Shown here: piece after piece, positions 1 to 53,869 of the stretch
Position numbering within the stretch: the first letter of the stretch is position 1
How the letters are laid out: every line of letters begins with the position of its first letter
Assembly: GCA_034429715.1 (NCBI GenBank)
Contig: DAOUFR010000058.1
Location: 7,811 to 71,810, forward strand
Reading direction: 5' to 3'
Source of the DNA: Dehalococcoidia bacterium
GTDB lineage: Bacteria > Chloroflexota > Dehalococcoidia > GIF9 > UBA5629
Length of the DNA stretch: 64,000 nucleotides
Made by a program: the position numbers and the translations under genes
The notes under the pieces: model-generated
What the model was told of the DNA's origin: nothing
The model's input: only the letters and a program-made list of their open reading frames with translations
Databases searched by the model: none

Positions 1-1
1 T

Positions 2-931
2 GAGTCTTTGGATAACGGTAAGATCGCCGTTATTGAAGCATTGAAAGAAGCGATCGACATCGGGCGTAAAACCGGCATCCCCGTCCAGATAGCGCATATT
101 AAAATAGGACACATACAAAATTCCGTAATGAAAGATCCGCAGCAAATGATTGATATGATCGTTGCAGCGCAGCAGGAAGGAATCGATGTAACTGCCGATC
201 AGTATCCATATGAGACAGAATGCGACCCATTACTGGTTACGCTGAATTACAAATATCTCACAGGCGGACAGCTTAAGAAGGAGTTTAAGACCAGCCAGGG
301 CAAAATGGAATTGAAAAAAGGTGCCGATGAGGCCTTGTCCCTGGTCCCGCCCGAAGATATTTTGATAGTCGGTTGTGATGTGAAGAAGGACTATGAAGGC
401 AAGAATATCAAACAAATTGCGGAACTCGAAAAAAGAGAGCCCGCAGATGTATACATGGACTGCGTCCTCATGGACAAGCCCCCATACTGCGCATACTTCA
501 CTCAGGACATTAACATCGTGCGTAGTTTCATGAAGTATGACTGGGTATTTACCGGCTCTGACGGGGCTCTATTTCCGAAATCTTTTGCTCCGATTGTGGG
601 GAAAATGCATCCCCGCTTCTACGGCACTTTTTCCCGTAAACTCAAGCAGTTTGTTCTTGATGAAAAATTGATGGACCTTCAGTCCGCGATCAGGTCTATG
701 AGTTCCATGCCGGCTGAGAAATTTAAGCTTAAAGGCAGAGGGAAGATAGCCGAAGGTTACTATGCCGATATTGCGGTAATAGATCTTAGCAAGCTGGCGG
801 ACAAAGCGACATATGAAGATCCCATTGAGTACCCGACCGGTGTGGTCGACCTGATCGTAAACGGAGTTATTGAAATTCGGGACGGCAATGCAACGGGTCA
901 GGCAGGTGGACGTGGATGTACGAAGGAGTGA
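2..931 (+). CDS. N-acyl-D-amino-acid deacylase (D-aminoacylase) family amidohydrolase, C-terminal ~310 aa; 5' end lies outside the window
   Basis: The reading frame is open to the window edge, and the track start at 8 is an internal TTG. The motifs DQYPYE, FTGSDG and HPRFYGTF are characteristic of the amidohydrolase-3/D-aminoacylase C-terminal half. Confidence 0.6.
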   Translation, partial: ESLDNGKIAVIEALKEAIDIGRKTGIPVQIAHIKIGHIQNSVMKDPQQMIDMIVAAQQEGIDVTADQYPYETECDPLLVTLNYKYLTGGQLKKEFKTSQGKMELKKGADEALSLVPPEDILIVGCDVKKDYEGKNIKQIAELEKREPADVYMDCVLMDKPPYCAYFTQDINIVRSFMKYDWVFTGSDGALFPKSFAPIVGKMHPRFYGTFSRKLKQFVLDEKLMDLQSAIRSMSSMPAEKFKLKGRGKIAEGYYADIAVIDLSKLADKATYEDPIEYPTGVVDLIVNGVIEIRDGNATGQAGGRGCTKE

Positions 932-937
932 GCATGA

Positions 938-1204
938 CTACCCCTCGCCCACATAAGCGGCAATAACTTCTTTGTTTGATGCTATTTCCGCGGGAGTTCC
1001 ATCGGCAATATTTTTACCAAAGTCGAGCACGACGATACGGTCCGCAAGATCCATCACCACGCCCATGTCATGCTCGATCAGCACTATTGAGTCAACGCCG
1101 TCGCGCAGGACAGTAGTATCCGAGTAGGATTCACCTGGGCCTTCGCAGATATCGTAAACAAAGCGTGCGATTGACATCGTGATAGAAAGAACATATAATT
1201 TCAA
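938..1204 (-). pseudogene. 3' remnant of an ABC-transporter ATP-binding protein gene (LivG/LivF-like)
   Basis: The last ~70 aa (TTVLRDGVDSIVLIEHDMGVVMDLADRIVVLDFGKNIADGTPAEIASNKEVIAAYVGEG) match the H-loop and C-terminus of branched-chain ABC ATPases. The ORF is only 88 aa and has no Walker A/B or signature motif. Its upstream part is degenerate and closed by a stop. Confidence 0.45.
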
Positions 1205-1385
1205 ATGAATGAACTGTTCAGTATATATGTAATTCTGAATTATAGTGGTTCATAGCAGTCATTTGTTAACATGGATATGTCTTTTGATTGTGTCCATTGC
1301 GTAAAATTTCTTACGTCCGGGTTATTCTAAATTCGTAATGAGTATCAACTGTACTAAATATCAAATAATATAAGGGGAAAGGGGT

Positions 1386-2537
1386 ATGAAAACTAAAACA
1401 AAGGGCCCCGTCGACCTGTTCGATGAGGTGATTGATCAGGGCTTGTGTACTAATTGCGGTGCATGCATAGGTTTCTGTCCATACCAGGTCTTCTACAAGG
1501 GAAAAGTTCGCCGTCTTGATTTCTGTTCAGGAACGGAAGGTCAATGCTATGATCATTGCCCGCGCACTTATACGAATATGGATGCGATTAGCAATAAGAT
1601 CGTCGGGCAGCCCTATAACGGCAGCTCAATAGGTACTATGAAAGCGATATTTATTACCAGAGCGAAAACCGCAGCCATAAGAAACAAAGGACAATACGGA
1701 GGAACTGTTACTGCACTTCTGACGTATGTACTTGAAAACGGGATCATCGACCGAGCCTTACTGTCAAAGACGACCAAAGAGAAATTGCCAGTAGGATTCG
1801 TGGCGCGAAATGGAAAAGAAGTCCGTGAATGCGCAGGCTCAAACTATATCGCTTATCCGGCACTTGAAGCTTTAAACAGGGTAAATCCGGAGAGCGGGGA
1901 TCGCATCGGTATTGTCGTCACTCCCTGCCAGGCTCAGGCGTTAGCTAAAATGCGAACCTATCCGTCACGGAAGAGACATAGCGCTGAAAACGTCAAACTG
2001 GTGATCGGTCTTTTTTGTACATGGGCTATGGCGTATGAAGGATTTTATGATTTCCTCCGACAACGCCTTGACATTCAAGATATCAAGAAGTTCGATATTC
2101 CCCCGCCTCCTGCCAATACTTTCGACGTACATCTTGCCAAAGAAACCAGGACATTTTCACTCGATGAAATCAGGAAATTCCGCATGCCGACATGTGCGTA
2201 TTGTCTGGATATGACAGCCGAATTGACCGATATTTCCGTGGGATCAGCAGAGGGTATACCCGGGTGGAATACTGTTATAGTTCGCACCGATGAAGGCGCC
2301 AGGGTGGTTGAGACTGCAAAAAATATGGGTATAATCGAGATTGATGAATTGCCGCCCGCAAATTTGGATCATCTAAAAATGGCGTCGATGAATAAGAAAA
2401 AACGCGCAGTCAGCGAGATTGTGAGAAAAACAGGCAATAGAAACGATATGCTCTACTTAGGCCTGCCGGGCACAGTTAAAGATGACCTGTTGTCACAAAC
2501 AGACGATCAGGGAGGAAGTGCCGATGTTAACCATTGA
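1386..2537 (+). CDS. FrhB/FdhB-family (coenzyme F420 hydrogenase/dehydrogenase beta-subunit-like) iron-sulfur flavoprotein
   Basis: The N-terminal 2x[4Fe-4S] ferredoxin motif (CTNCGACIGFCPY ... CYDHCP) is followed by an FrhB-like body. A GGGGAAAGGGG RBS lies upstream. The stop overlaps the iorA start by 14 nt. Confidence 0.6.
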   Translation: MKTKTKGPVDLFDEVIDQGLCTNCGACIGFCPYQVFYKGKVRRLDFCSGTEGQCYDHCPRTYTNMDAISNKIVGQPYNGSSIGTMKAIFITRAKTAAIRNKGQYGGTVTALLTYVLENGIIDRALLSKTTKEKLPVGFVARNGKEVRECAGSNYIAYPALEALNRVNPESGDRIGIVVTPCQAQALAKMRTYPSRKRHSAENVKLVIGLFCTWAMAYEGFYDFLRQRLDIQDIKKFDIPPPPANTFDVHLAKETRTFSLDEIRKFRMPTCAYCLDMTAELTDISVGSAEGIPGWNTVIVRTDEGARVVETAKNMGIIEIDELPPANLDHLKMASMNKKKRAVSEIVRKTGNRNDMLYLGLPGTVKDDLLSQTDDQGGSADVNH

Positions 2538-4464
2538 TATTGATGCTCCGGGCAAAAGACGAATATTCATCGGGAATGAAGCTATCGCAAGGGGGGCGCT
2601 GGAAGCCGGAGTAGGTTTTGCAGCGGCATATCCAGGGACTCCTTCCTCGGAGGTCCTCGGCAGCCTGGTCGAAGTGGCCAAATCGCAGAACATCTACGTA
2701 GAATGGTCTGTAAATGAGATGGTATCGCTTGAGGAAGCAGCAGCAGCATCGTACGCCGGCGTGCGTTCCCTGTGCGCCATGAAGATGAATGGTCTCAATG
2801 TGGCATTGGATTTTATATCCGGCCTTGTTATTACCGGCATAGGGAAGAAAGGCTTGGTACTGATGGTCGCCGATGATCCGCAGGCACATTCCAGCTCTGA
2901 AGAGGAAGACTCGCGTAATATAGCCAAGATGTTCGATATCCCTCTTCTTGAACCAAGCGATGCCCAGGAAGCCAAAGATATGATGAAATATCTGTATGAA
3001 TTGAGTGAGGAGATCGGTTCTATTTGCTTCCTGCGCAGCGTAACGAGGGTGGCACATGCCCGCGGCACAGTGACGCTGGGTGAGTTGCCGAAGATGAAAC
3101 ATCACGCGCGCTTTGATGACGTGCTGGATCTTAAAAAAATTATGCCCACGTCAATAATGCCGTTGCCCACATCCTTGCGGCACGCGTTTCAGCATATGAA
3201 GCTGGAAAAAGCGCGCGCCAAGTTCGAGCAATCGTCTTTTAACGAGTATCTGGGACCTCAGAAACCGGATTTACTAATAATCACATCCGGCAGTGGATGG
3301 ACATACTCGCAGGATGCAGTTGAAGCGCTGAAACTTCAAGAAAAGGTTGGTATCCTTAAGTTGGGTACTGTGTGGCCATTACCCGAAAAACTGGTAAAAA
3401 GCTGTTTGGATAGCGCAAGCAAGGTGCTTTTCGTAGAAGAGATCGATCCCTTTATTGAGGATGCGGTAATGGCGTATCGATCGAGTGTCTCCGTGGAAGG
3501 ATACAAAAATATATTCTATGGCAAGTTTACGCGACATATGAACGTGGTCGGTGAGTTGACGCCCGATGGGATCATAAAAGCTATAACGGACATCCTGAAT
3601 ATCCAGTATGAGGCTCAGACTGCGTCGTACGTCAAACGTCTTGAAACAGTGCCTCAAAACATCATGATGGAACGTATTCAGACCTTTTGTCCCGGATGTC
3701 CCCACCGCGCGACATACTGGTCTATTAAGAATGCGTTGATGATGGACGGGAGAAAGGGGTTTGTGACGGGTGATATCGGGTGCTATTCGATGGCTCTTGG
3801 CCCTGCCGGGTTTTTCATGAACAGGGTGCAGCAATGCATGGGGGGTGGAAGTGGACTAGCCAACGGATTTGGACAGCTCTGGAGATTCGGATTCGATCAG
3901 CCTGTCGTAGCAGTATGCGGAGATTCTACATTCTTCCACGCAGTTATGCCGGCGCTGATTAATGGTGTCCACAATAATGCTAACTTCGTGCTCGTTGTGC
4001 TTGATAATCGAGCGACAGCCATGACAGGTTTCCAGCCCAATCCCGGAACCGAGTTGACTGCTATGGGTGAACGAGCAAAGATGATTAGCATAGAGAAGAT
4101 TTGCCAGGCCATAGGAGCGCGGGTGGAAGTCTGTGATCCGTTCAATCTTTCAGACACGCAGGCAACTTTATTGGATTTATTAGAGAATGAAAAAGGAACC
4201 CGGGTGGCTGTGATGCGACGCAGTTGCGAGCTTGTTCGTGGCAGGAGAGAGGCGAAACCATACAAAGTCAGTGTTAATGCAGAGAAGTGCTGGTCTGATG
4301 AGTGCGGATGTAACAGACTTTGCACAGAAGTCTTTGGCTGCCCTGCCCTGGCAATCGATGAAGCAACAGGTAAAACTAAAATTGATGAAGTCTTGTGCAA
4401 TGGATGTGGTGTGTGTGCTGACATCTGTCCGCATGGTGCAATATTGAAGGAGGCAATCAAGTGA
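2524..4464 (+). CDS. iorA: indolepyruvate:ferredoxin oxidoreductase alpha subunit
   Basis: The N-terminus (IFIGNEAIARGALEAGV, GYPGTPSSE) is IorA-like. A TPP-binding region is present, and the C-terminus carries a 2x[4Fe-4S] motif (CNGCGVCADICP). ATG 2524 follows a GGAGG RBS; the track ORF starts earlier at 2482. Confidence 0.8.
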   Translation: MLTIDIDAPGKRRIFIGNEAIARGALEAGVGFAAAYPGTPSSEVLGSLVEVAKSQNIYVEWSVNEMVSLEEAAAASYAGVRSLCAMKMNGLNVALDFISGLVITGIGKKGLVLMVADDPQAHSSSEEEDSRNIAKMFDIPLLEPSDAQEAKDMMKYLYELSEEIGSICFLRSVTRVAHARGTVTLGELPKMKHHARFDDVLDLKKIMPTSIMPLPTSLRHAFQHMKLEKARAKFEQSSFNEYLGPQKPDLLIITSGSGWTYSQDAVEALKLQEKVGILKLGTVWPLPEKLVKSCLDSASKVLFVEEIDPFIEDAVMAYRSSVSVEGYKNIFYGKFTRHMNVVGELTPDGIIKAITDILNIQYEAQTASYVKRLETVPQNIMMERIQTFCPGCPHRATYWSIKNALMMDGRKGFVTGDIGCYSMALGPAGFFMNRVQQCMGGGSGLANGFGQLWRFGFDQPVVAVCGDSTFFHAVMPALINGVHNNANFVLVVLDNRATAMTGFQPNPGTELTAMGERAKMISIEKICQAIGARVEVCDPFNLSDTQATLLDLLENEKGTRVAVMRRSCELVRGRREAKPYKVSVNAEKCWSDECGCNRLCTEVFGCPALAIDEATGKTKIDEVLCNGCGVCADICPHGAILKEAIK

Positions 4465-5075
4465 AACATCTTTTTAAAGAGCCGGTTAATTTCATTGTTT
4501 CCGGGGTGGGTGGGCAAGGAAATGTAATGATTTCTTTAATAGTCGGTGGCGCATTGGTGGACATGGGTTACTATGTTGCTGTTGGAGAGACGTATGGTTC
4601 CAGCCAGAGGGGGGGTTCGGTTATGAGCCACGTCAGAATATCAGCCAATAAACAGTATGGACCTCTTATACCCGAAGGTCAGGCGCATATAATTCTGGGA
4701 ATGGAGCCAGTGGAAACTGTAAGAATGTTCAGGCAATTTGGAAATGAACACGTAGTAACGATTGTTAATCCAAGACCGATTCCTGCAGTTGGCATGATCT
4801 ACGATAAATATCCGGAAATACCTGTTTTACTCCAGCATATACGTAATATGTCCGCTAAGATCTATGTTGTAAATGCTACGGAAGAAGCGCAAAAGCTGGG
4901 GAATCCTATTCTGGCAAATATGGTCCTGATTGGAGCTCTTGTCGAAACATCATTGCTTCCGATTGAGGAGAAAGACATTAGGTTGAGCATAGAAGAGCTT
5001 TTCCCCAAAGCAATAGATATCAATATGAAGGCGTTAAAACTGGGAAGGGAAATTGTTCACAAGCAGGCCGCGTAG
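4461..5075 (+). CDS. iorB: indolepyruvate:ferredoxin oxidoreductase beta subunit
   Basis: The motif GVGGQGNVMISLIVGGA marks the POR gamma-domain family. The GTG start overlaps the iorA stop by 4 nt. Confidence 0.75.
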   Translation: MKHLFKEPVNFIVSGVGGQGNVMISLIVGGALVDMGYYVAVGETYGSSQRGGSVMSHVRISANKQYGPLIPEGQAHIILGMEPVETVRMFRQFGNEHVVTIVNPRPIPAVGMIYDKYPEIPVLLQHIRNMSAKIYVVNATEEAQKLGNPILANMVLIGALVETSLLPIEEKDIRLSIEELFPKAIDINMKALKLGREIVHKQAA

Positions 5076-5099
5076 TGCTTTGTATTTCAGCAGAGAAAA

Positions 5100-5130
5100 G
5101 TCTGTTTCAGTGAAACATATACTGAAATGA
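5100..5130. terminator. possible hairpin (7-bp inverted repeat TTTCAGT-N9-ACTGAAA) in the convergent gap between iorB and the TetR gene
   Basis: The inverted repeat sits at 5105-5111/5121-5127. A T-rich stretch follows on the minus strand. A weak CC-UUCG-GG hairpin with a T-run lies at 5147-5166 on the plus strand. Confidence 0.3.
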
Positions 5131-5191
5131 GTAGCAGTAATATTAGGCCTTCGGGAAATTTTTCAGTATGGTTATCTGAATCGTCGTAAAA

Positions 5192-5917
5192 TTACCTTCT
5201 GGACCTGGTGGTTTTCTGTGGCTCGATAAAGGCATTCTTAAGTGCGCTAACAACCGTTTCCTCACACAGCTTTTCATCCAGGTGTACAGGGTGCGGGCCA
5301 CCGCGCTTATGAACGGCAAACCAATTAGTTGTCTCGAAAATTAACCTTGCTGAAATAGAGGTATCAGGCACAGCTTTAAACAACTTCATCTTTATGCGCG
5401 AATCCAGATACTTCGACAGTAAATCGATGAGGTCTTCACGAACACGCTGATAAAAGAATTGAGCGAGGTCAGGATAATCTTCTGCCGATTGCATGACAAT
5501 GGCTATACCGTATCTATATCTTGATAGCGTATGATATAAATTGCGCAGGATGTTATCAAATTCCGCTTCAATATCGGGTACGTCTTTCCGATCAATAGCC
5601 TCTTCAATATATCGGAATACATGTCTTTCCTCAATCATCTTTTCCAACATGGCCACAGGCGTCATTTTGCGCGAAAGTTTTATCGGTAATACCACATGAG
5701 TTAAATCCTCATCATCCGAAAAAATACGCTTTAAAACAAAATGAAACAAGGCCTTCTTGCTTTTTACATAAAGATATAAAGTCCCTGGCGCTATGTCCAT
5801 GTCACCGGCTATTTTTGACATGTGCGTCTTGTTGTAACCGAACTTTGCAAATATCCTGGCACTGGTTAGGACAAGTTTATTTAAACGCTCAAGGCTCCTG
5901 TTATTTTGATCTGCCAT
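5192..5917 (-). CDS. TetR-family transcriptional regulator
   Basis: An N-terminal HTH (RIFAKFGYNKTHMSKIAGDMDIAPGTLYLYVKSK) is followed by an alpha-helical C-terminal domain. It is divergent from the AbfD-like operon. Confidence 0.75.
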   Translation of the reverse strand: MADQNNRSLERLNKLVLTSARIFAKFGYNKTHMSKIAGDMDIAPGTLYLYVKSKKALFHFVLKRIFSDDEDLTHVVLPIKLSRKMTPVAMLEKMIEERHVFRYIEEAIDRKDVPDIEAEFDNILRNLYHTLSRYRYGIAIVMQSAEDYPDLAQFFYQRVREDLIDLLSKYLDSRIKMKLFKAVPDTSISARLIFETTNWFAVHKRGGPHPVHLDEKLCEETVVSALKNAFIEPQKTTRSRR

Positions 5918-6000
5918 ATACAAGCCTACTAATATATATTTTGAAAAAGTTTAATATATGCGAGTTACAAAATCAAATTTATATAAATCAGTCATTCAGC

Positions 6001-6028
6001 TTGACATTTATTTACAGATTGTTATAAT
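6001..6028 (+). promoter_or_regulatory. sigma70-like promoter (TTGACA-16 nt-TATAAT) driving the AbfD-like genes
   Basis: TTGACA sits at 6001-6006 and TATAAT at 6023-6028, in an AT-rich divergent intergenic region. Confidence 0.5.
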
Positions 6029-6044
6029 GATTATTATAATGGAT

Positions 6045-6065
6045 ATGAATGAATAAGTCATTCAT
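6045..6065. promoter_or_regulatory. candidate TetR operator: inverted repeat ATGAATGA-N5-TCATTCAT
   Basis: 8-bp perfect arms sit at 6045-6052/6058-6065, just downstream of the -10 element. A further TCATTCA half-site lies at 5992-5998 next to the -35 element. Confidence 0.45.
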
Positions 6066-6178
6066 ATTATTACAGTAAGAGATCAGTATGGTTATCAAAT
6101 TAACTAATTTAATCATCCTATTTGCTGGCTCTTCTAATCACTGTCGCAAATTATTATTTAAATAGGCAGGAGAACAAG

Positions 6179-7642
6179 ATGCGGACTAAGAAAGAGTTCA
6201 TACAGGCGCTGAAGAAGAAGAGAAGAAACGTTTACTACGAGGGCAAGCTCATTGATCGCGATGACGAATTACAGATGCCTGCTATAGATACAATGGCAAT
6301 CACGTTCGATATGGCAAATGATCCTAAATATAAAGACCTGGTATTAGCCAAAAGCCACCTGACAAGTGAGACCATTAATCGGTGGACACATATACATCAG
6401 AGTAAAGAGGACTTGCATAAGAAACAAGATGCAACACGTGCCCTTTGCCGCTTGGTCGGAGGATGTCTGCATAGGTGCATGGGTATTGATGCCGCAAATG
6501 CTATTAATGCCATTTCATACGAAGCGGATAAGGCAAATGGTAATTCCACCGAATATCATAAAAATTTTCTCAAATGGCTTGAACGTTTCCAGAAAGAAGA
6601 CCTGGTTGGTTGTTGCGCGCAGACTGATGTGAAGGGAGACAGAATGAAACGTCCAAGTCAGCAGAAGGATCCGGACTTATATTTGAGGATTATTGAGAAA
6701 AAAAGCGATGGCGTTATAGTTCAGGGTTGCAAACTGCATAATTCTGAAGCTTCGTACGCTGATGAGATACTGGTTGTACCGACCCGTTCGCTGCTGCCGG
6801 AGGAAAAAGACTGGGCGATAGCTTTTGCTATACCTGCAGATTGGGAAGGTGTGACGCAAGTAGTGACGATTCATAACCTGAGGGAACGAAAACATTTCAG
6901 GAAAGGATTTATGCAGGGAGCTACTGATTCATACACAATATTTGATAAGTGTTTCATTCCCTGGGAAAGGGTATTTCTTTGCGGTGAGACAGTTCATGGC
7001 TCCGTAGGCGCGCTGCTTTTTGCGCTTTTCCACAGGCACAGTTTCTCCGGATGTAAACCTGCGTTGGGTGATCATTTAGTGGGGACGGCAGCATTAATAG
7101 CTGAATATAACGGCATTGAGAGGGCAGGACATGTAAGAGCTAAGCTGGCGGAGTTGATACGCGTCTCGGAACTCGGCTACGCTGCAGGTTTTACAGCGTC
7201 GGAACTTGCCATGCCGAAAGTGTACATGCCCGGTGTTGGTGTGGTCCCCTATGGTCCTGGCAGCTATTTCCCCGATTCGATCTATTGCAATGTTGGTCGT
7301 TGCCTGACAGGCGAGGCCGTTTACAGAGAGTCCGAGATCATTTGCGACCTTGCCGGTGGGATTCCGGCCACATTTCCGCATGAAGCTGATTTCTTGAATC
7401 CTAAAACGCGTGGCTTTCTTGAAAAATATACGATGCGTAATCCAAATAAGAAGATAGAGAATGCTATCAAGTTGTGGATGCATGTTGGTGATATGTTGTG
7501 TTCCGCTTCTGGCGGCATCTGGATGGTGGGAAATTATCACGGTGGCGGCTCACCCGTTATGGAGACAATAGCTATAACTGCACAATACGATATCGAAGAC
7601 CGCAAGCAGATAGTCAAGAAGGTGGCCGGTATGGAGGACTGA
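6179..7642 (+). CDS. 4-hydroxybutyryl-CoA dehydratase/vinylacetyl-CoA isomerase (AbfD) family [4Fe-4S] flavoenzyme, paralog 1
   Basis: The cluster-ligand pattern C-x3-C (GGCLHRCMG, Cys96/Cys100) plus H-x6-C (FHRHSFSGCKP) matches AbfD Cys99/Cys103/His292/Cys299. Length (487 aa) and fold family fit AbfD/HpaB. ATG 6179 follows a GGAG RBS. Confidence 0.6.
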   Translation: MRTKKEFIQALKKKRRNVYYEGKLIDRDDELQMPAIDTMAITFDMANDPKYKDLVLAKSHLTSETINRWTHIHQSKEDLHKKQDATRALCRLVGGCLHRCMGIDAANAINAISYEADKANGNSTEYHKNFLKWLERFQKEDLVGCCAQTDVKGDRMKRPSQQKDPDLYLRIIEKKSDGVIVQGCKLHNSEASYADEILVVPTRSLLPEEKDWAIAFAIPADWEGVTQVVTIHNLRERKHFRKGFMQGATDSYTIFDKCFIPWERVFLCGETVHGSVGALLFALFHRHSFSGCKPALGDHLVGTAALIAEYNGIERAGHVRAKLAELIRVSELGYAAGFTASELAMPKVYMPGVGVVPYGPGSYFPDSIYCNVGRCLTGEAVYRESEIICDLAGGIPATFPHEADFLNPKTRGFLEKYTMRNPNKKIENAIKLWMHVGDMLCSASGGIWMVGNYHGGGSPVMETIAITAQYDIEDRKQIVKKVAGMED

Positions 7643-7727
7643 GACTCACGATTTAATAGCGGATTACAGATACGAAGCAGCTTAATAATATTATAACCCA
7701 AAACATTGGTAAAAGGAGGATAAATCA

Positions 7728-9206
7728 GTGATTTCATCCAGCGAATACAGAAAAAGGCTAAGCAAACTCAGGCGCAATATATATAATGATGGTAGTCTGG
7801 TGGACCGGGAATACGATCGATTGCAAGGCGCAATAAACGTACTGGCCAGAGGCTATGATATTGTGACTGATCCGGAGTTCAAGGAATATGAAGATATACT
7901 TACTGCTACTTCCCATTTGACTGGAGAAAAGATAAATCGCTTCAACCATATCCATCGTAGTGTCCAGGATCTGCTTGCTAAACAGAGAATGACGCGATTG
8001 ACAACGCAGCAGGTTGGAGGCTGTATCGCACGCTGCATGGGTATAGATTCAACCAATGCGCTTTCAGTTATAACATACCTTACTGACCAGAAATATGGCA
8101 CAGAGTACCATAAACGCTTCGAGGCTTGGCTAAAGGATTTCCAAATTAATGATCGCACAGCTTGCTGTGCTCAGACCGATGTTAAAGGTAACCGACCCTG
8201 GCGCCCACACCAACAAAAAGACCTCGACCTTTATCTAAGGGTCGTGGAGAAGAAGAGCGACGGCATTGTAGTCAGAGGCGCTAAGGTACATAACTCATGG
8301 GCCTCAGTTGTGGAGCAAATTAACGTTATACCGACCAGGGCATTAACGAAAGAAGAAGGAGACTGGGCGGTGGCTTTCAACGTTCCTGCAGATGCCGATG
8401 GCATCAAACAGATAGTTAGTGTTACCAAGGCAGATCTGCCTGAAGGTATGACGGGTCCTGGGCCCTTTGGAAGTGCTGATTCCATGACTGTATTTGATAA
8501 TGTATTTATTCCCTGGGACCACGTTTTTCTCTGCGGTGAGTCAGAAATGGGCGGCTATTTAGCGTTGCTTTTCGCTCTATATCACCGGCACAGCTATACT
8601 GGATGCAAGCCCGCCATGACTGACATCCTGACCGGAGCCGTGGCCCTCATGGCTGAGGTCAATGGTATCGAAAAGGAGCACCATGTAAGGGAGAAGTTGT
8701 CCGAAATGATCTGTACATCGGAACTCTGCTACGGAAGCGGCATCGCCGCCGCGGTCAATGCCTCGAAGTCACCTTCTGGAACTTTTATACCTGATATGAT
8801 GTATTGCAATGTTAGCCGCAGGCATGCGGGAATTAATATTTATCATGAGTATGACATACTGGCAGATATTGCAGGGGGTATGCCTGCAACTTTGCCACGT
8901 CCCAAGGACTGGACCAACGAGGAAACACGTCCCTTCATAGAGAAATACATGGCCCGTAATCCCGATGTCAAAGTTGAGGACGTGCTCAAGGCTTTCTATT
9001 TCGTACAGACCTTTTCCTGCACTGAGATTGCCGGGGTATCACAATATGCCGGTGTTCACGGAGGCGGTTCACCCAGAATGGAGCAGATAGCTATAATGGG
9101 AGCTTATAATCTGGAAAATCCAAAAAATATTGCCAAAAGGCTGGCCGGAATTGAAACGGGCAAACCGTACACATTCGATCGCCTGGGTATCACGCCTATC
9201 CTATGA
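7728..9206 (+). CDS. AbfD-family dehydratase, paralog 2
   Basis: It carries the same C-x3-C (GGCIARCMG) and H-x6-C (YHRHSYTGCKP) motifs. It is roughly 45% identical to paralog 1 by eye. AGGAGG precedes the GTG start. Confidence 0.6.
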   Translation: MISSSEYRKRLSKLRRNIYNDGSLVDREYDRLQGAINVLARGYDIVTDPEFKEYEDILTATSHLTGEKINRFNHIHRSVQDLLAKQRMTRLTTQQVGGCIARCMGIDSTNALSVITYLTDQKYGTEYHKRFEAWLKDFQINDRTACCAQTDVKGNRPWRPHQQKDLDLYLRVVEKKSDGIVVRGAKVHNSWASVVEQINVIPTRALTKEEGDWAVAFNVPADADGIKQIVSVTKADLPEGMTGPGPFGSADSMTVFDNVFIPWDHVFLCGESEMGGYLALLFALYHRHSYTGCKPAMTDILTGAVALMAEVNGIEKEHHVREKLSEMICTSELCYGSGIAAAVNASKSPSGTFIPDMMYCNVSRRHAGINIYHEYDILADIAGGMPATLPRPKDWTNEETRPFIEKYMARNPDVKVEDVLKAFYFVQTFSCTEIAGVSQYAGVHGGGSPRMEQIAIMGAYNLENPKNIAKRLAGIETGKPYTFDRLGITPIL

Positions 9207-9230
9207 GGATGGTGATCACTATCATAGCAA

Positions 9231-9270
9231 AAAGGAGCTGCCTATAATACGGACAGCTCCTTTTAATATT
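9231..9270 (+). terminator. rho-independent terminator after the AbfD operon
   Basis: The stem AAAAGGAGCTG / CAGCTCCTTTT has a 13-nt loop and is followed by TTTTAATATT. Confidence 0.65.
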
Positions 9271-9390
9271 AAACAAGAAAACGTGATTAAGTAACTGTTG
9301 AACACGTCGAGCGCCTGTGTCGCAGCCAATAACGTTCCGGGTACCGGGCCTGCCCATCATCTTCCTGGCGATGTCAGCCCGTGCGGTGTA

Positions 9391-17886: not shown

Positions 17887-18771
17887 TTACAGTTTGGTCA
17901 CATCGAAAGGGGTCATCTTCCCGTCGGGCGAGTAATCGTAGAAACCTTTGCCGACCTTGCGGCCCAGCCTTCCGGCCTTGAGCATTTTCTCCATCAGCGG
18001 CGATGACGCCGCGATATCCGCAGCGCCCAGCGCGGCGAAAGATTTGCCCACTCTTACATAAGTATCGATGCCTGCGTTGTCGGCGATCTCGAAGGGGCCG
18101 ACATTCCAGTTGAACCCGTAACGCATGCCTTTATCCACGTCTTCCACTGTTGCGATGCCGTTCTCTACCAGCGACAGCGCCTCCCGGAATGCGACACCGC
18201 TCACGCGGTTCATGATGAACCCGGGTATATCTTTCATGACTTTGACCGGGTACTGGCCGAGGGAAGCTATGAAGTCCACGCCTTTCCTGAACACTTCATC
18301 CGATGTCTTTTCGCCCTTGATGACCTCCACCAGCCGCATCACCGGCACCGGGCCGAAGAAGTGCAGTCCGACCACCCTCTCGGGATGTACGGTCAGCGAA
18401 GCCAGGCGCGTAATGGGTATGCTGGATGTGTTGGAGGCCAGGATGGTATCCGCCGGGCAGGCGGCGTCCAGCTCCTTGAACAGCTCCTTTTTCATTTTCT
18501 CGTCCTCGAAGACAGCTTCGATAACCCATTTACAGCGGGGGGCCATGGAGAAGTCATTGACCGGATTGATCCTGTTTTGCACCACCTGGGCGCTGTCCTT
18601 GATCCTGCCCTTGGAGGCAAGCTTCTCGGTCGACCATTTTATCTGCGCCAGGCTCTTTGTGATCGCCTCCGGACTCATATCCTGCAGGAAGACGTTGTAA
18701 CCGGACTGCGCCGCCACCTGGGCGATGCCTCCGCCCATGAAACCTGCGCCGATAACCATGACGTCGTCCAT
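17887..18771 (-). CDS. 3-hydroxybutyryl-CoA / 3-hydroxyacyl-CoA dehydrogenase
   Basis: A Rossmann motif VMVIGAGFMGGGIAQV is followed by a HAD C-domain. ATG 18771 has a GGGGG RBS. The track ORF extends spuriously upstream. Confidence 0.8.
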   Translation of the reverse strand: MDDVMVIGAGFMGGGIAQVAAQSGYNVFLQDMSPEAITKSLAQIKWSTEKLASKGRIKDSAQVVQNRINPVNDFSMAPRCKWVIEAVFEDEKMKKELFKELDAACPADTILASNTSSIPITRLASLTVHPERVVGLHFFGPVPVMRLVEVIKGEKTSDEVFRKGVDFIASLGQYPVKVMKDIPGFIMNRVSGVAFREALSLVENGIATVEDVDKGMRYGFNWNVGPFEIADNAGIDTYVRVGKSFAALGAADIAASSPLMEKMLKAGRLGRKVGKGFYDYSPDGKMTPFDVTKL

Positions 18772-18954
18772 AATTAAGACCCCCTTGAGTGAATTTTGCC
18801 TTAAGAAATGAAGCCTGCCTATTGTGCACAAATCCAACGGAATTAGCAATACACTGTACTGGCCCATCGCATCGTTATATAATATTTAACGCCGCCTCAA
18901 AGGGCGCCCCCCACCGGGCGGTCGCCAAATAATTTAATTACGGAGGTATCCCCC

Positions 18955-19671
18955 ATGTCTTTAGTCGAATGGAGCGTTGACGAAAACATCGCGCTGCTCA
19001 CCATGAAGAATGGTGAGAACAGGTTTAATATGGGCTTCTGCAGCGAATTGCTCAAAGCGCTGGACGATATCGAGAAGAAGACCGCCGTCACCGCGCTTGT
19101 CGTGAAATCTGCCGACGAAAAGATCTGGTGCAACGGTATGGACCTCGACTGGCTCGTGCCCGCAATCGGACGCAAGGATCCCGAAGTGGAGAAATTTTTC
19201 GAGGTCCAGGATAGGGTTTACAGGCGCATTACCTTCTATCCCATGAATACGGTGGCGGCGCTGACCGGCCACGCGTTCGCCGGGGGCGCCATACTGGCCT
19301 GCTCTTTCGATTTTCTTTACATGCGCGCCGACCGCGGCTTCCTGTGTTTCCCCGAAGTCGATCTAAATATCCCCTTCCTGCCGTATATGGATGCTTTAAT
19401 CAAGAGGACCCTGCCCTCAACCAGAGTGCGCGAAGCCCAGTTGACCGGGAAGCGTTACACCGCTGCAGAGCTGGAGAAGCTCAACGTTGTGCGTAAAGCC
19501 TGCTCCTCGGCCGATGAGACCGTAAAAGAGGCGGTGGCCTTCGCCAAAAGCCTGAATAAGGGCAGAGGCATCGTGGGCGAGATGAAAAAAATCATGAACG
19601 CACGCATCGGAAATCTCATGGACAATGTGGTTAGACCTAAACTGGATACGGGCGGCGTTCCCATTAAATAG
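18955..19671 (+). CDS. enoyl-CoA hydratase/isomerase (crotonase) family protein
   Basis: It shows the crotonase fold signature. A GGAGG RBS is present. Confidence 0.65.
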   Translation: MSLVEWSVDENIALLTMKNGENRFNMGFCSELLKALDDIEKKTAVTALVVKSADEKIWCNGMDLDWLVPAIGRKDPEVEKFFEVQDRVYRRITFYPMNTVAALTGHAFAGGAILACSFDFLYMRADRGFLCFPEVDLNIPFLPYMDALIKRTLPSTRVREAQLTGKRYTAAELEKLNVVRKACSSADETVKEAVAFAKSLNKGRGIVGEMKKIMNARIGNLMDNVVRPKLDTGGVPIK

Positions 19672-21395: not shown

Positions 21396-23147
21396 TTAAG
21401 ACCTGAACACGAAGCTGAGAGCGCCTGCGAGATCGATAGTGTCACCATCTTTAATCGCCTGCCTGCCTGTGCCCTTGATGGAGGACCCGTTCAGCCTGGT
21501 GCCGTTGGTGCTGCCACGGTCCTCGATGTAATACTGGCCGTTTTCATAGGAGACTGTGACATGTTGCCTGGATATAAGGTCTGCCTTATCCGGGGAAACC
21601 ATGTGCTGGAAGTCCCTTCGTCCCAGCGGCGCGTCACCCGCCAGCGAAAGTTCGCTTCCGTTGGAGGCAACGAATTTGGCCGCTGGACCGACGGGTACCG
21701 GCGAGGTTTTGGGAGAGCCTGTTGCCGGCAGAGTGGCTACGGGTGAAGTGACAGCAGGCATCGTGCCGGAGCGCCCGCCGCCGTAATGAACGGCCTGCGC
21801 AGCAGGTTTCCTCAGCAGAAGGATGACTATGATTATGGCGGCTGCGGCCAGCAGCGCAACGAGCAGGATATAGGGTAGCCACCATGACAGCGTGCCATTA
21901 CTGCTGCCGGCGGTGCTGACCGGGTCGGTGGCGGTGGAGGCGGCTTCGGTTGTGCCGCTATAGGTGCCGCCGGTGTAATAGGTGCTGCCGACATAGGGCG
22001 CCACCGTTACCGTGGTGCTGGCCACCCCCGAGCCTGCGCTGTTCGACGCGGTAAGTGTATAAGTGGTCGTGTAGGCGGGAGTTACAACGTACACTCCCGT
22101 ATTGGGCACCGAGCCAACCGAAGGCGATATGCTGACATTAGCCGTGTTGTTGACCGTCCATGACAGTGTGGATGATTGCCCCGGCTGGATATAGCTGGGA
22201 TTGGCCGTGAACGAGCTGATCACAGGCGCATAGACCGGAGAAGGTGTGGACGGCACCACCACGACAGGATAGCTACGATAGTAAGGTGTTACCCATGAGT
22301 TGGAGTACCACCGGTACCCGTAGGGATAGTATGGTGCAAAGGGATTATACGGATTGTATGGTGGCCTGTGTGGTGGCGGTGGCCCAGGGGGCGGCGGCCC
22401 GGGAGGCGGTGGCCCGGGAGGCGGTGGCCCGGGAGGTGGCGGCCCAGGAGGTGGTGGTCCTGGAGGAGGAGGCAATGGTGGAGGTGGAGGAGGTGGCATC
22501 GGCGGAGCAGGGAAAGAGTCCGGTCCCGGCACCGATATCGGTGGATGGACTTGGACTGTAATTGGCGATGAAGGTGGCAGAGGGGGTGGCGGGAGCGCAT
22601 CACCCGCAGGTGGTTCAGCCTGGGCGACCTGAATAGGCGGCTGAAGCTCCTCAGACACCTGTTCTGAAGAGGTAATAGCAGGGTCTTCAATTGCAGAATC
22701 CTGCGATGGGACGATAGGCTCGGAACCGGTTGCAACCGTGGTCTCGATCACCGGTTCAGGCAAAGGTGGAGGTGGTGGTGCGACCAACTCGGTAGTGGAC
22801 GCAACCGTGGTCTCGACCACCGGCGCGGGCGGCTCAGGAGTAGATGTAACCGTAGTCTCGACCACCGGAGCTACCGGATCAGGTGCAGACGCAACCGTGG
22901 TCTCGACCACCGGAGCTACCGGCTCGGGTGCAGATGCAACCGTGGTCTCTGCTACCGGCGCGGGTGGCTCAGGAGTAGATGTGATCGTGGCCTCTTCCAC
23001 AACAGCCGGGGTGGTTGTCTCTGTGGCTATGGAAGTTTCCGATGGCGCCGGTGCATCGTCCGCAGAGGCAGGTATCAGCGGCAGCATTAAGACAGAGCAG
23101 ACAAGAAGCGCTGCCGCCAGGAACTGAACAATTTTTTTAGCAGTCAT
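21396..23147 (-). CDS. membrane-anchored FHA-domain protein with a repetitive Pro-rich ectodomain, an Ig/PKD-like domain, one TM helix and a C-terminal cytoplasmic FHA domain (583 aa)
   Basis: A signal peptide is followed by about five copies of the 15-aa repeat ETTVASAPEPVAPVV, then (PPPGP)x6, a Tyr/Trp-rich segment and an Ig-like domain. The TM helix is LPYILLVALLAAAAIIIVILLL. The FHA motif is GRR...ISRQH...GSTNGTRLNG. A GAGGAGG RBS is present. Confidence 0.75.
   Translation of the reverse strand: MTAKKIVQFLAAALLVCSVLMLPLIPASADDAPAPSETSIATETTTPAVVEEATITSTPEPPAPVAETTVASAPEPVAPVVETTVASAPDPVAPVVETTVTSTPEPPAPVVETTVASTTELVAPPPPPLPEPVIETTVATGSEPIVPSQDSAIEDPAITSSEQVSEELQPPIQVAQAEPPAGDALPPPPLPPSSPITVQVHPPISVPGPDSFPAPPMPPPPPPPLPPPPGPPPPGPPPPGPPPPGPPPPGPPPPGPPPPHRPPYNPYNPFAPYYPYGYRWYSNSWVTPYYRSYPVVVVPSTPSPVYAPVISSFTANPSYIQPGQSSTLSWTVNNTANVSISPSVGSVPNTGVYVVTPAYTTTYTLTASNSAGSGVASTTVTVAPYVGSTYYTGGTYSGTTEAASTATDPVSTAGSSNGTLSWWLPYILLVALLAAAAIIIVILLLRKPAAQAVHYGGGRSGTMPAVTSPVATLPATGSPKTSPVPVGPAAKFVASNGSELSLAGDAPLGRRDFQHMVSPDKADLISRQHVTVSYENGQYYIEDRGSTNGTRLNGSSIKGTGRQAIKDGDTIDLAGALSFVFRS
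22381..22470. repeat. 6 x 15-bp tandem repeat (GGCCCGGGAGGCGGT) encoding PPPGP repeats on the minus strand
   Basis: The repeat units are directly visible in sequence. Confidence 0.8.
22738..23025. repeat. about 6 x 45-bp tandem repeat (four near-perfect copies at 22801-22980) encoding 15-aa ectodomain repeats
   Basis: The unit gcaaccgtggtctcgaccaccgg[a/c]gc... recurs at 45-nt period and is in-frame coding within the FHA583 gene. Confidence 0.8.
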
Positions 23148-23176
23148 TTTAACCTCCTCTTTGATTACGATGATTA

Positions 23177-24724: not shown

Positions 24725-24891
24725 ATCTATAAAGCACCTCCAGGTGATCGTGTATCTTTATTAAGTATAAGGGCACATTACACCCTCTGCTTGACCCTGG
24801 CCTGACAGGTTCCTGACAAACACCTGATAAAAAGGCGGATGCTCGGATTGAACCAGGTACCGGGCAGGGCCCTCATGAGGAAATAAAGAGG

Positions 24892-27820: not shown

Positions 27821-27842
27821 TCAAATCTCCTTCATTTGCATA

Positions 27843-28334: not shown

Positions 28335-28364
28335 ATCATTCTAGTCTGCTGAAAAACCGACTGC

Positions 28365-28393
28365 TTGACAGCTTTCTGACGAATACCTAATAT
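28365..28393 (+). promoter_or_regulatory. sigma70-like promoter (TTGACA-17-TAATAT) for the FHA/winged-helix regulator gene
   Basis: TTGACA sits at 28365-28370 and TAATAT at 28388-28393, in a divergent intergenic region shared with the kinase operon. Confidence 0.45.
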
Positions 28394-28483
28394 AAATCTG
28401 ACATATATATTCAATGTGATGGTTGCCCTTGATATATTATACTGCAAGAGGAAATACAGCCTGCATATAGCAGGAGGCCCGTT

Positions 28484-32429: not shown

Positions 32430-32480
32430 GTTTATTGAATGTGCAGCAGCTTAAAATTATCTGTGGTCGAGTTTACCAAG

Positions 32481-33089: not shown

Positions 33090-33154
33090 GATAGGTACCT
33101 TCGCTATACAGTTAAACTATTATATTTGTAACTAACGTGAATTACAATTCAGGC

Positions 33155-33206: not shown

Positions 33207-33221
33207 ATTAGGAGGCTGTTG

Positions 33222-38052: not shown

Positions 38053-38071
38053 GTAATTACAATATATAAAT

Positions 38072-53751: not shown

Positions 53752-53869
53752 TTTGCACCCCTTTATGATTAGATATAAGTAACAGCTTTAATACCAGAAT
53801 TAAATCTTAGAATATCGCTGGCCTTATTGCAAAGACATGCATGAAACATTCATTCATCGGTTCGACCTG

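What the first reader, a model, noticed from the sequence alone, without database searches (positions are those of the whole stretch)
5192..9270. TetR-controlled tandem pair of AbfD-type [4Fe-4S]/FAD dehydratase paralogs
Two adjacent genes (487 and 492 aa) both keep the AbfD cluster ligands (C-x3-C and H-x6-C), but they are clearly divergent paralogs. Upstream lies a divergent TetR gene. The intergenic region has a textbook TTGACA-16-TATAAT promoter, followed by a perfect 8-bp-arm palindrome ATGAATGA-N5-TCATTCAT plus a third half-site at the -35 element. A clean rho-independent terminator follows the second paralog. Radical 4-hydroxybutyryl-CoA dehydratases are rare enzymes, mostly known from 4-aminobutyrate fermentation and archaeal CO2-fixation cycles. 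A regulated tandem pair with no adjacent abfT/abfH-like partners suggests different, possibly novel, substrates.
Basis: partly seen in the sequence, partly recalled or inferred. Interest (0 to 1): 0.6.

Follow-up and report, generated by a model that had tools for sequence, protein, structure and literature searches.

The report
TetR-linked pair of atypical AbfD-like enzymes
Two neighbouring genes next to a TetR-type repressor gene encode iron-sulfur flavoenzymes related to 4-hydroxybutyryl-CoA dehydratase, but they belong to two widespread, unstudied sister groups that lack a key catalytic glutamate, so they probably act on other acyl-CoA compounds and are mislabelled in databases.

Summary
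A divergent tetR-like gene (5192-5917, -), a perfect TTGACA-16-TATAAT promoter, a 10-bp-arm palindrome, two AbfD-like genes (A 6179-7642, B 7728-9206) and a terminator hairpin (9230-9264) are all present. Both proteins match solved 4-hydroxybutyryl-CoA dehydratases (1U8V E 1e-89 and 1e-96; model TM 0.92) far better than HpaB monooxygenases, and both keep the Cys99/Cys103/His292/Cys299 cluster ligands. Neither is a canonical dehydratase. Catalytic Glu455 is Gly (A) or Ala (B), Glu257 is Asp, Thr190 is Ser, and A alone also has Tyr296Phe and Gln101His. A and B fall in two separate, well conserved orthogroups (bootstrap 100 each) outside the canonical clade (98). In other genomes each occurs as a single gene among beta-oxidation-type genes. 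None of 80 A-type loci carried a B-type gene nearby, so the A+B tandem was seen only here. The locus lies in a low-GC block (43-49% against 55-59%), which suggests horizontal acquisition. The TetR is very rare. A second near-perfect copy of its palindrome lies upstream of a benzoyl-CoA-reductase-like operon 48 kb away. Best reading: a TetR-repressed operon for two uncharacterised radical acyl-CoA dehydratase/isomerase variants. Substrates are unknown.

The parts
5192..5917 (-). tetR-family regulator gene (241 aa), divergent from the A-B operon
   Evidence: Pfam TetR_N 30 bits against cutoff 24. PDB matches cover the HTH region only. Gene call and database protein are 241 aa. Only one 67% and one 33% homologue were found among 5.8 billion proteins.
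5991..5998 (.). operator-like half-site GTCATTCA, ending two bases before the -35 hexamer
   Evidence: It lies within a 16-nt direct repeat of the palindrome's right arm region (88% identical). The only two GTCATTCA in the window are both in this intergenic region.
6001..6028 (+). predicted sigma-70 promoter of the A-B operon (TTGACA-16-tgTATAAT)
   Evidence: 12/12 consensus match with TG extension. The intergenic region is 25.5% GC.
6043..6067 (.). perfect palindrome ATATGAATGA-N5-TCATTCATAT, the candidate TetR operator. It lies about +8 to +32 of the A-B promoter and covers the -35 of a candidate tetR promoter on the minus strand (6061->6033).
   Evidence: 0.05 matches expected by chance.
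6179..7642 (+). gene A: AbfD-like [4Fe-4S]/FAD protein, 487 aa, a divergent member of the A-type orthogroup (signature R C H C S D H F C K G G)
7728..9206 (+). gene B: AbfD-like [4Fe-4S]/FAD protein, 492 aa, a typical member of the B-type orthogroup (signature R C A C S D H Y C K A G)
9230..9270 (+). terminator-like hairpin (13 bp, one bulge) with a short U run. It coincides with the right edge of the low-GC block.
   Evidence: z = -5.8; GC shift near 9.3 kb.
53837..53857 (.). second copy of the palindrome (ATGCATGA-N5-TCATTCAT, 1 mismatch), about 86 nt upstream of the first gene of a BCR/2-hydroxyacyl-CoA-dehydratase-like operon. Tentative second operator.
   Evidence: Operon genes.

Best explanation
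A horizontally acquired catabolic module. A rare TetR-family repressor is transcribed divergently from a two-gene operon.

Regulation (inferred). The repressor dimer binds the perfect palindrome just downstream of the strong A-B promoter, and possibly the half-site beside the -35. This would block both the operon promoter and its own promoter until a small-molecule effector releases it. The effector is probably an acyl-CoA or organic acid.

Enzymes (shown by sequence and model). Both products have the 4-hydroxybutyryl-CoA dehydratase fold and a Cys3-His ligated [4Fe-4S] site facing FAD.

Function (inferred). They belong to two sister, uncharacterised subfamilies in which the canonical acid/base Glu455 is replaced by Gly or Ala, and Glu257, Thr190 and Ala460 are replaced by the smaller Asp, Ser and Gly. 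I therefore expect AbfD-like chemistry on acyl-CoA thioesters other than 4-hydroxybutyryl-CoA. That chemistry would be flavin/iron-sulfur-assisted gamma-elimination of water, or delta3-to-delta2 double-bond isomerisation. Likely substrates are bulkier or longer 4-hydroxyacyl- or 3-enoyl-CoA intermediates of anaerobic beta-oxidation-type pathways. A and B probably have different substrates. The residue next to the flavin-contacting Ser is Glu in A-type and Trp/Phe/Tyr in B-type, and A alone carries Q101H and Y296F.
For: Family placement. A and B hit 1U8V at E 2.5e-89 and 2.1e-96, and 6VJR at 5.8e-81 and 1.4e-87, against about 1e-30 for HpaB. The AF2 model of A has pLDDT 92 and TM 0.92 to 1U8V, against 0.83-0.85 to HpaB structures. 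The ligands C99/C103/H292/C299, plus R90 and K300, are invariant in A, B and all 237 full-length close homologues.

Difference from canonical 4HBD. E455 is G/A, E257 is D, T190 is S and A460 is G across the clade. The alignment is anchored by the ungapped HG[AG]GSP motif. T190, E257, Y296 and E455 are reported as important for dehydratase activity (bioRxiv 10.1101/2020.02.05.935528, section 9). NJ bootstrap is 100 for A-type, 100 for B-core, 77 for A+B together and 98 for canonical 4HBD. Two loci (L080, L083) carry a canonical-signature 4HBD 2-3 kb from a tetR plus A-type pair, so the two kinds coexist.

Acyl-CoA context. In 80 species-level loci, A-type genes neighbour a TetR in 46, an SDR in 28, a 3-hydroxyacyl-CoA dehydrogenase in 20, an acyl-CoA dehydrogenase in 12, and an enoyl-CoA hydratase and an acyl-CoA synthetase in 8 each. 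B-type genes sit next to an SDR, two family-III CoA-transferases and an ABC uptake system.

Regulation. Promoter, palindrome and half-site. No terminator-like site is found between A and B.
Against: No member of either subfamily has been characterised, and I found none in the literature held here. The substrate class therefore rests on residue differences and neighbourhoods.

I could not inspect coordinates, so I cannot show that the four smaller residues line the substrate pocket.

In this window the immediate neighbours are an indolepyruvate-type oxidoreductase and purine biosynthesis genes, not beta-oxidation genes.

The window's TetR is not orthologous to the TetR that usually precedes A-type genes (about 30% identity, HTH only). 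It is too rare for comparative support of the operator.

Y296F may mean that A has little or no AbfD-type activity.
Confidence: 0.6

Rival explanations
1. Both genes encode genuine 4-hydroxybutyryl-CoA dehydratase/vinylacetyl-CoA isomerases, used for 4-hydroxybutyrate or 4-aminobutyrate fermentation or a 4-hydroxybutyrate CO2-fixation cycle. Another residue would substitute for Glu455.
For: They have the same fold and cluster ligands, and R90, K300 and (in B) Y296 are conserved. Some sources name close homologues '4-hydroxybutyryl-CoA dehydratase/vinylacetyl-CoA-Delta-isomerase'. A-type proteins have a Glu at position 191 that could in principle replace a lost acid.
Against: E455 is absent from the whole clade, and E257 and T190 are altered. 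The clade is separate from the one holding both solved 4HBDs. It is only 35-38% identical to them, whereas the bacterial and archaeal 4HBDs share 59%. Canonical 4HBD genes coexist beside A-type genes in L080 and L083. No 4-hydroxybutyrate dehydrogenase or AbfT-type CoA-transferase was seen among the annotated genes in the window.
Confidence: 0.12
2. A is a catalytically impaired partner. A and B assemble into a hetero-oligomer in which B supplies the chemistry, and A contributes half of the shared FAD/substrate channel or a regulatory role.
For: A alone has Y296F and Q101H, while all 120 closest homologues have Y296 and 116 have Q101. A differs at 9 of 216 near-invariant orthogroup positions (controls mostly 0-2, two at 6-7). 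The changes lie mainly in residues 63-97 (six of nine, flanking the cluster Cys motif), plus Y296. B differs at 0 of 172. In 4HBD the active-site channel and FAD site are built by two monomers (bioRxiv 10.1101/2020.02.05.935528, section 8). The genes are 85 bp apart with no terminator-like site between them.
Against: A is intact, 77-80% identical to its orthologues, and on a branch of ordinary length. A-type and B-type proteins function alone in every other genome examined. At 48% identity a hetero-interface is not assured. No tool here tests assembly.
Confidence: 0.15
3. The tandem is a fortuitous juxtaposition inside a mosaic, horizontally acquired island. A and B serve unrelated pathways, and the TetR and palindrome may control only one of them or only tetR itself.
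For: No other locus has A and B together (0 of 80 A-type loci and none of the B-type loci examined). The usual partner genes of each type are missing here. The block 1-9.3 kb has 43-49% GC against 55-59% elsewhere. The TetR is non-orthologous to the usual one.
Against: The two genes share a strand, an 85-bp spacer, matching GC (46.6% and 47.7%), a single strong upstream promoter and a single downstream hairpin. That is the layout of one transcription unit.
Confidence: 0.12
4. They are cluster-free HpaB-type two-component aromatic monooxygenases, as public annotation suggests ('aromatic ring hydroxylase', '4-hydroxyphenylacetate 3-hydroxylase family').
For: Pfam HpaB_N and HpaB domains match, and sources give those names.
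Against: TIGR02309 scores are 138 and 125 bits against a cutoff of 480. The four cluster ligands are all present, whereas Thermus HpaB has none at those columns. The proteins are much closer to 1U8V and 6VJR. The host lineage and its relatives are anaerobes. No flavin-reductase partner was seen among the annotated genes.
Confidence: 0.01

Closest known systems
4-hydroxybutyryl-CoA dehydratase / vinylacetyl-CoA delta-isomerase AbfD of Clostridium aminobutyricum (PDB 1U8V)
   Same: Full-length homology (E 1e-89 and 1e-96). Same fold (TM 0.92). The Cys99/Cys103/His292/Cys299 [4Fe-4S] ligands, R90 and K300 are conserved, and so is the HG(A/G)GSP motif. It is an acyl-CoA enzyme of anaerobes.
   Different: Only 36-38% identical. 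E455 is Gly/Ala, E257 is Asp, T190 is Ser, A460 is Gly and Q101 is His/Ala; A also has Y296F. They fall in a different clade. No abfH or abfT neighbours. Relatives sit among beta-oxidation-type genes rather than 4-aminobutyrate fermentation genes.
Oxygen-tolerant archaeal 4HBD of Nitrosopumilus maritimus (PDB 6VJR)
   Same: Same fold and ligands (E 1e-81 and 1e-87, TM 0.91).
   Different: 35% identical. The bulky tunnel-closing residues of the archaeal enzyme (T102, R441, N442, L77) are not present. A has G, A, S, T and B has G, E, I, N at those columns. Oxygen tolerance by that mechanism is therefore not expected. The catalytic Glu is missing.
HpaB-family two-component flavin monooxygenases (e.g. 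Thermus HpaB, 2YYG)
   Same: Same overall three-domain fold and Pfam domains.
   Different: About 27% identical. HpaB has no cluster ligands and uses O2-dependent chemistry with a reductase partner. The window proteins score far below the family cutoffs.
Divergent tetR/tetA-type repressor-operator modules
   Same: The regulator gene is divergent from the target operon. A palindromic operator overlaps face-to-face promoters in a short AT-rich intergenic region.
   Different: The ligand-binding domain matches no known family. The repressor is nearly unique in public data. Binding and effector are untested.

Membership tests
AbfD / 4-hydroxybutyryl-CoA dehydratase family (cluster-bearing branch of the HpaB fold) | HpaB_N + HpaB_C three-domain fold, full-length similarity to 1U8V and 6VJR | tested here: met
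   Pfam 282+175 bits (A) and 257+202 bits (B). PDB phmmer E 1e-89 and 1e-96. AF2 model TM 0.92 and 0.91.
AbfD / 4-hydroxybutyryl-CoA dehydratase family (cluster-bearing branch of the HpaB fold) | [4Fe-4S] ligands Cys99, Cys103, His292, Cys299 | tested here: met
   All four align without gaps in A (C96, C100, H285, C292) and B (C99, C103, H286, C293), and in all close homologues.
Canonical 4-hydroxybutyryl-CoA dehydratase (functional 4HBD) | Catalytic residues T190, E257, Y296 and E455, reported as important for dehydration | tested here: not met
   A has S, D, F, G. B has S, D, Y, A. The role of these residues is taken from bioRxiv 10.1101/2020.02.05.935528, section 9.
Canonical 4-hydroxybutyryl-CoA dehydratase (functional 4HBD) | Groups phylogenetically with the characterised bacterial and archaeal enzymes | tested here: not met
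   The canonical clade (bootstrap 98) excludes A and B, which form their own clades (100 and 100; joint 77). The method was NJ only, not ML.
Canonical 4-hydroxybutyryl-CoA dehydratase (functional 4HBD) | Pathway partners nearby (4-hydroxybutyrate dehydrogenase, 4-hydroxybutyrate CoA-transferase or ligase) | tested here: not met
   None among the annotated genes of the window. A few short ORFs were not scanned, and the rest of the genome is unknown.
Canonical 4-hydroxybutyryl-CoA dehydratase (functional 4HBD) | Dehydrates 4-hydroxybutyryl-CoA to crotonyl-CoA; contains FAD and [4Fe-4S] | not testable with these tools
   Needs anaerobic biochemistry.
HpaB-type two-component monooxygenase | Reaches the family equivalog score; no Fe-S ligands; flavin reductase partner | tested here: not met
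   TIGR02309 scores are 138 and 125 bits against cutoff 480. Cluster ligands are present. No reductase gene was seen among the annotated genes.
TetR-family repressor with divergent operator | N-terminal TetR HTH domain | tested here: met
   PF00440 scores 30 bits against cutoff 24. PDB TetR hits cover residues 9-105.
TetR-family repressor with divergent operator | Palindromic operator overlapping the promoter(s) of the regulated or own gene | tested here: met
   A perfect 10-bp-arm palindrome lies at 6043-6067, next to the 12/12 promoter and over a 10/12 minus-strand promoter. This is sequence evidence only.
TetR-family repressor with divergent operator | Protein binds the operator and is released by an effector | not testable with these tools
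   Comparative support was not obtainable because the repressor has almost no homologues.
Rho-independent terminator | GC-rich hairpin followed by a U run | tested here: inconclusive
   The hairpin is stable (z = -5.8), but only four U follow and they are part of the stem. The consensus scan did not report it.

The most novel reading that the evidence does not exclude
The A-type and B-type groups are a widespread, unstudied family of radical [4Fe-4S]/FAD acyl-CoA enzymes. They would catalyse a reaction not yet assigned to any enzyme in anaerobes, such as dehydration of medium- or long-chain or branched 4-hydroxyacyl-CoA. That would be the oxygen-independent counterpart of the phosphorylation-elimination routes known from aerobes. 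In this genome the remodelled A subunit (Q101H, Y296F) and B would form a hetero-oligomer with hybrid active sites, co-regulated by one TetR with a benzoyl-CoA-reductase-like enzyme.
Probability: 0.15. Interest if true: 0.7.

Novelty: new variant of a known kind. Interest (0 to 1): 0.45.

Why it matters
AbfD is treated as a key enzyme of the 4-hydroxybutyrate CO2-fixation cycles (PMC12794621) and is used to infer 4-aminobutyrate-type butyrate synthesis from genomes. Proteins of the A and B groups are common in Dehalococcoidia, Syntrophales, Desulfobacterales and other anaerobes. Public sources label them either '4-hydroxybutyryl-CoA dehydratase' or 'aromatic ring hydroxylase'.

The residue and tree evidence says both labels are probably wrong. 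Pathway inferences from metagenomes that count these genes may therefore be inflated.

The family also offers a clean target for enzymology. It has the same cofactors as a textbook radical dehydratase, lacks the catalytic glutamate, and sits in beta-oxidation-like gene neighbourhoods. This particular locus adds a natural Y296F/Q101H variant, a testable repressor-operator pair, and a possible regulatory link to a BCR-like reductase.

Tried and rejected
- Riboswitch or other RNA in the 144-nt leader or elsewhere: no Rfam hit at gathering thresholds, and no tRNA.
- Comparative support for the operator. A metagenome scan with the TetR found only one 22% relative. A protein search found one 67% homologue on a 1.7-kb contig whose DNA could not be fetched. 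The TetR usually next to A-type genes is not orthologous.
- Recurrent partnership with a FadH-like 2,4-dienoyl-CoA reductase. It was seen beside A-type genes in only 2 loci, and 3-4 kb away beyond ribosomal-protein genes in B-type loci. It is absent from the window. Dropped as sporadic.
- Whether tandem AbfD-like pairs generally contain a Y296F partner: no. The three A+A' tandems (L064, L069, L074) have normal signatures in both copies.
- Primary literature on AbfD variants and structure (Zhang et al. 2015; Martins et al. 2004) is not held. Residue roles are taken from a preprint that cites them. My recollection that Y296F retains less than 1% dehydratase activity is from memory and unverified.
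- Literature searches for characterised AbfD paralogs, or for these groups in Dehalococcoidia or Syntrophales, found nothing relevant.
- The missing self-hit for protein A in the first homology search is a clustering artefact. Its 90% cluster is represented by a 36-aa fragment.

Full report
**1. What is in the sequence**

The region holds a tetR-like gene on the minus strand. The ORF runs 5192-5923 from a TTG, but the gene call on an independent assembly and the database protein both start at the ATG at 5917, giving 241 aa. Two plus-strand genes follow. A is 6179-7642 (487 aa, GGAG ribosome-binding site). B is 7728-9206 (492 aa, GTG start, AGGAGG 7 nt upstream).

The 255-bp intergenic region is 25.5% GC. 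It contains a 12/12 sigma-70 consensus promoter with a TG extension at 6001-6028. The 21-nt core is expected 0.05 times per 64 kb even with two mismatches allowed.

The half-site GTCATTCA at 5991-5998 ends two bases before the -35 hexamer. The only two copies of this 8-mer in the window are both in this region. A 10/12 promoter-like site on the minus strand (6061->6033) places a possible tetR -35 inside the right arm of the palindrome. That gives the classic face-to-face arrangement of a divergent repressor and target pair.

After B there is a 13-bp hairpin with one bulge at 9230-9264 (z = -5.8). Its U run is short, and the simple terminator scan did not report it. No terminator-like site lies between A and B.

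**2. What the two proteins are**

Both carry Pfam HpaB_N and HpaB domains. Both fall far below the equivalog cutoffs for HpaB monooxygenases (138 and 125 bits against 480). Against solved structures, the best matches are the two 4-hydroxybutyryl-CoA dehydratases:
- 1U8V: E 2.5e-89 for A and 2.1e-96 for B.
- 6VJR: E 5.8e-81 for A and 1.4e-87 for B.
- HpaB-type oxygenases: 1e-32 or weaker.

An AlphaFold model of A (pLDDT 92, pTM 0.91) superposes on 1U8V with TM 0.92 and on 6VJR with 0.91. HpaB structures give 0.83-0.85.

I rebuilt 1U8V numbering from the printed alignment and checked it against the published residue names. The cluster ligands Cys99, Cys103, His292 and Cys299 are present in A, in B and in all 237 full-length close homologues. 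So are R90 and K300. These proteins belong to the cluster-bearing branch.

**3. They are not canonical dehydratases**

[quoted passage not shown] It lists E455, Y296 and H292 (given there in N. maritimus numbering as E449, Y299 and H295) as critical catalytic residues (bioRxiv 10.1101/2020.02.05.935528, sections 9 and 11).

| Position (1U8V) | 90 | 99 | 101 | 103 | 190 | 257 | 292 | 296 | 299 | 300 | 455 | 460 |
|---|---|---|---|---|---|---|---|---|---|---|---|---|
| AbfD and N. maritimus 4HBD | R | C | Q | C | T | E | H | Y | C | K | E | A |
| A | R | C | H | C | S | D | H | F | C | K | G | G |
| B | R | C | A | C | S | D | H | Y | C | K | A | G |

The E455 column is secure because the ungapped HG(A/G)GSP motif follows three residues later.

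The loss of E455, together with E257D, T190S and A460G, is shared by the 120 closest homologues of A and the 65 closest of B. It is a property of the clade, not damage to these copies. All four changes are to smaller side chains. One reading is a more spacious pocket, but I could not inspect coordinates to confirm it. Position 191, next to the flavin-contacting residue, is Gly in 4HBD, Glu in A-type and Trp/Phe/Tyr in B-type. This points to different active sites in the two groups.

**4. Phylogeny and distribution**

A profile search of 1.84 billion 50%-cluster representatives found 2578 clusters at E<1e-3 and 321 at E<1e-30. Most of the full-length representatives I aligned keep the four ligands but have very varied 'catalytic' positions. 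The canonical signature is only one of many.

In a neighbour-joining tree rooted on Thermus HpaB, A falls inside an A-type clade and B inside a B-type clade. The two form a joint group separate from the clade holding both solved 4HBDs. Bootstrap support is 100 for A-type, 100 for B-core, 77 for A+B together and 98 for canonical 4HBD.

Pairwise identities:
- A to B: 50%.
- A or B to AbfD: 36-38%.
- A or B to the archaeal enzyme: 35%.
- A to its orthologue P0012: 77%; B to its orthologue P0130: 81%.
- The two solved 4HBDs to each other: 59%.

A-type proteins at 60-80% identity occur in Dehalococcoidia, Syntrophales/Smithella, Desulfobacterales, Spirochaetota, Abyssubacteria, Poribacteria and a Hodarchaeales bin. 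The closest genomes are Dehalococcoidia, so that is the likely source lineage.

**5. Genomic context elsewhere**

In 80 species-representative loci carrying an A-type gene, none has a B-type gene nearby.
- Three loci have a tandem A-type duplicate, with normal signatures in both copies.
- Two loci (L080, L083) have a canonical-signature 4HBD 2-3 kb away, next to the tetR plus A-type pair. This coexistence argues against redundancy with true 4HBD.

The commonest neighbour is a TetR of about 231 aa, present in 46 loci. It usually lies directly upstream on the same strand with a gap of about 63 bp. Next come an SDR (28 loci), a 3-hydroxyacyl-CoA dehydrogenase (20), an acyl-CoA dehydrogenase (12), and an enoyl-CoA hydratase and a long-chain acyl-CoA synthetase (8 each). 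B-type genes sit just downstream of an SDR. Nearby are a solute-binding protein, two family-III CoA-transferases and an ABC transporter.

Both groups therefore live in acyl-CoA catabolic settings, not in 4-aminobutyrate fermentation clusters.

**6. What is special about this locus**

- The A+B tandem was seen only here.
- A is an unusual A-type member. It alone has Y296F (0 of 120 homologues) and Q101H (116 of 120 have Q). It differs at 9 of 216 near-invariant positions, six of them in residues 63-97, which flank the cluster Cys motif. Controls mostly differ at 0-2, with two at 6-7. B differs at 0 of 172. The sequence of A is identical in an independent Logan assembly, which may derive from the same sample.
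- The TetR is not the usual one. It shares about 30% identity over the HTH only. It has just two detectable relatives among 5.8 billion proteins.
- The block 1-9.3 kb covers an amidohydrolase, an FrhB-like protein, indolepyruvate-type oxidoreductase alpha and beta subunits, tetR, A and B. It has 43-49% GC and GC3 of 0.42-0.53. The adjacent purF/purM/purH genes have 55-59% GC and GC3 of about 0.7. The shift coincides with the hairpin after B. This points to horizontal acquisition and explains the unrelated downstream genes.

**7. A possible wider regulon**

The only other close match to the palindrome in the window is ATGCATGA-N5-TCATTCAT at 53837-53857, with one mismatch. It lies in a 118-bp gap about 86 nt upstream of an operon encoding two HGD-D-family subunits and two BcrA/D-type ATPases. 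An acyl-CoA ligase lies upstream, and a PadR, another ligase, a third HGD-D protein, transporters, a 3-hydroxyacyl-CoA dehydrogenase and a thiolase lie downstream. If real, the same repressor would couple the AbfD-like pair to a benzoyl-CoA-reductase-like or 2-hydroxyacyl-CoA-dehydratase-like system. This is a lead, not a finding.

**8. Mechanism proposed**

Shown by sequence or model:
- the AbfD fold and the cofactor ligands;
- the clade-wide loss of E455;
- the operon-like layout;
- the promoter and palindrome.

Inferred:
- The TetR dimer represses both divergent promoters until an effector binds.
- The enzymes carry out AbfD-type flavin/iron-sulfur chemistry, either gamma-dehydration or delta3-to-delta2 isomerisation.
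- They act on acyl-CoA substrates other than 4-hydroxybutyryl-CoA, with different specificities for A and B.
- The tunnel-closing residues that make the archaeal enzyme oxygen tolerant are not present, so the proteins are probably oxygen sensitive.

Because the 4HBD active-site channel is built from two monomers, a hetero-oligomer with hybrid sites is possible. It is untested.

**9. Verdict**

This is a new variant of a known enzyme kind, in a lineage-specific arrangement. No characterised member of either subfamily was found in the literature available here. That library lacks most subscription journals.

Interest is moderate. The locus itself is a regulated two-gene operon. The family behind it is widespread, probably mis-annotated, and a good target for enzymology.

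Noticed in passing
window 53837-53857: A second near-perfect copy of the A-B operator palindrome (ATGCATGA-N5-TCATTCAT, 1 mismatch). It lies about 86 nt upstream of the first HGD-D gene of a BCR-like operon. Only 0.05 such matches are expected by chance in the window.
   Followed up: partly
window 45668-55387 (minus strand): A cluster resembling class I benzoyl-CoA reductase or 2-hydroxyacyl-CoA dehydratase. It has three HGD-D-family proteins, two BcrA/D-type ATPases, a PadR regulator and two acyl-CoA ligases, flanked by MFS transporters, a 3-hydroxyacyl-CoA dehydrogenase and a thiolase. All NCBIfam matches are below the equivalog cutoffs.
   Followed up: partly
window 1-9300 and 32000-40200: Two low-GC blocks (43-49% against 55-59% elsewhere). 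Each carries a TetR gene plus acyl-CoA metabolism genes. The second holds TetR, SDR, thiolase, acyl-CoA ligase, acyl-CoA dehydrogenase, enoyl-CoA hydratase and a family-III CoA-transferase. Both look like horizontally acquired catabolic modules.
   Followed up: partly
window 33176-33206: A large palindrome (AATAGAATACATTCA-N1-TGAATATATTCTATT, 15-nt arms, 93% complementary) lies between the second tetR gene (32481-33089, -) and the SDR gene (33219, +). It is a likely operator of that regulator.
   Followed up: no
window 21396-29167: A dense signalling cluster: four FHA-domain proteins, a Ser/Thr protein kinase, a PP2C phosphatase and an FHA plus winged-helix (Trans_reg_C) regulator.
   Followed up: no
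window 1386-5075: An FrhB/FdhB-like Fe-S flavoprotein gene overlaps the start of an indolepyruvate:ferredoxin oxidoreductase alpha gene, which is followed by the beta subunit. This suggests a dedicated electron-transfer partner for the 2-oxoacid oxidoreductase. It lies in the same low-GC block as the A-B operon.
   Followed up: no
loci L080 (2718-4169) and L083 (3516-4955): In two Syntrophaceae/deltaproteobacterial genomes, a 4HBD with the full canonical catalytic signature lies 2-3 kb from a tetR plus A-type gene pair. L083 also has a large biotin-carboxylase/carboxyltransferase fusion beside it.
   Followed up: partly
protein A (window 6179-7642) in the protein collection: The 90% cluster containing protein A is represented by a 36-aa fragment. 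A homology search with A therefore returns no self-hit. This is a database artefact that could hide the protein from cluster-level surveys.
   Followed up: yes
window 17887-19671 and 29169-30041: Further beta-oxidation-type genes are scattered in the high-GC backbone: a 3-hydroxyacyl-CoA dehydrogenase and two enoyl-CoA hydratases. The window has five AMP-forming acyl-CoA ligases in total, so the organism is heavily invested in acyl-CoA catabolism.
   Followed up: no
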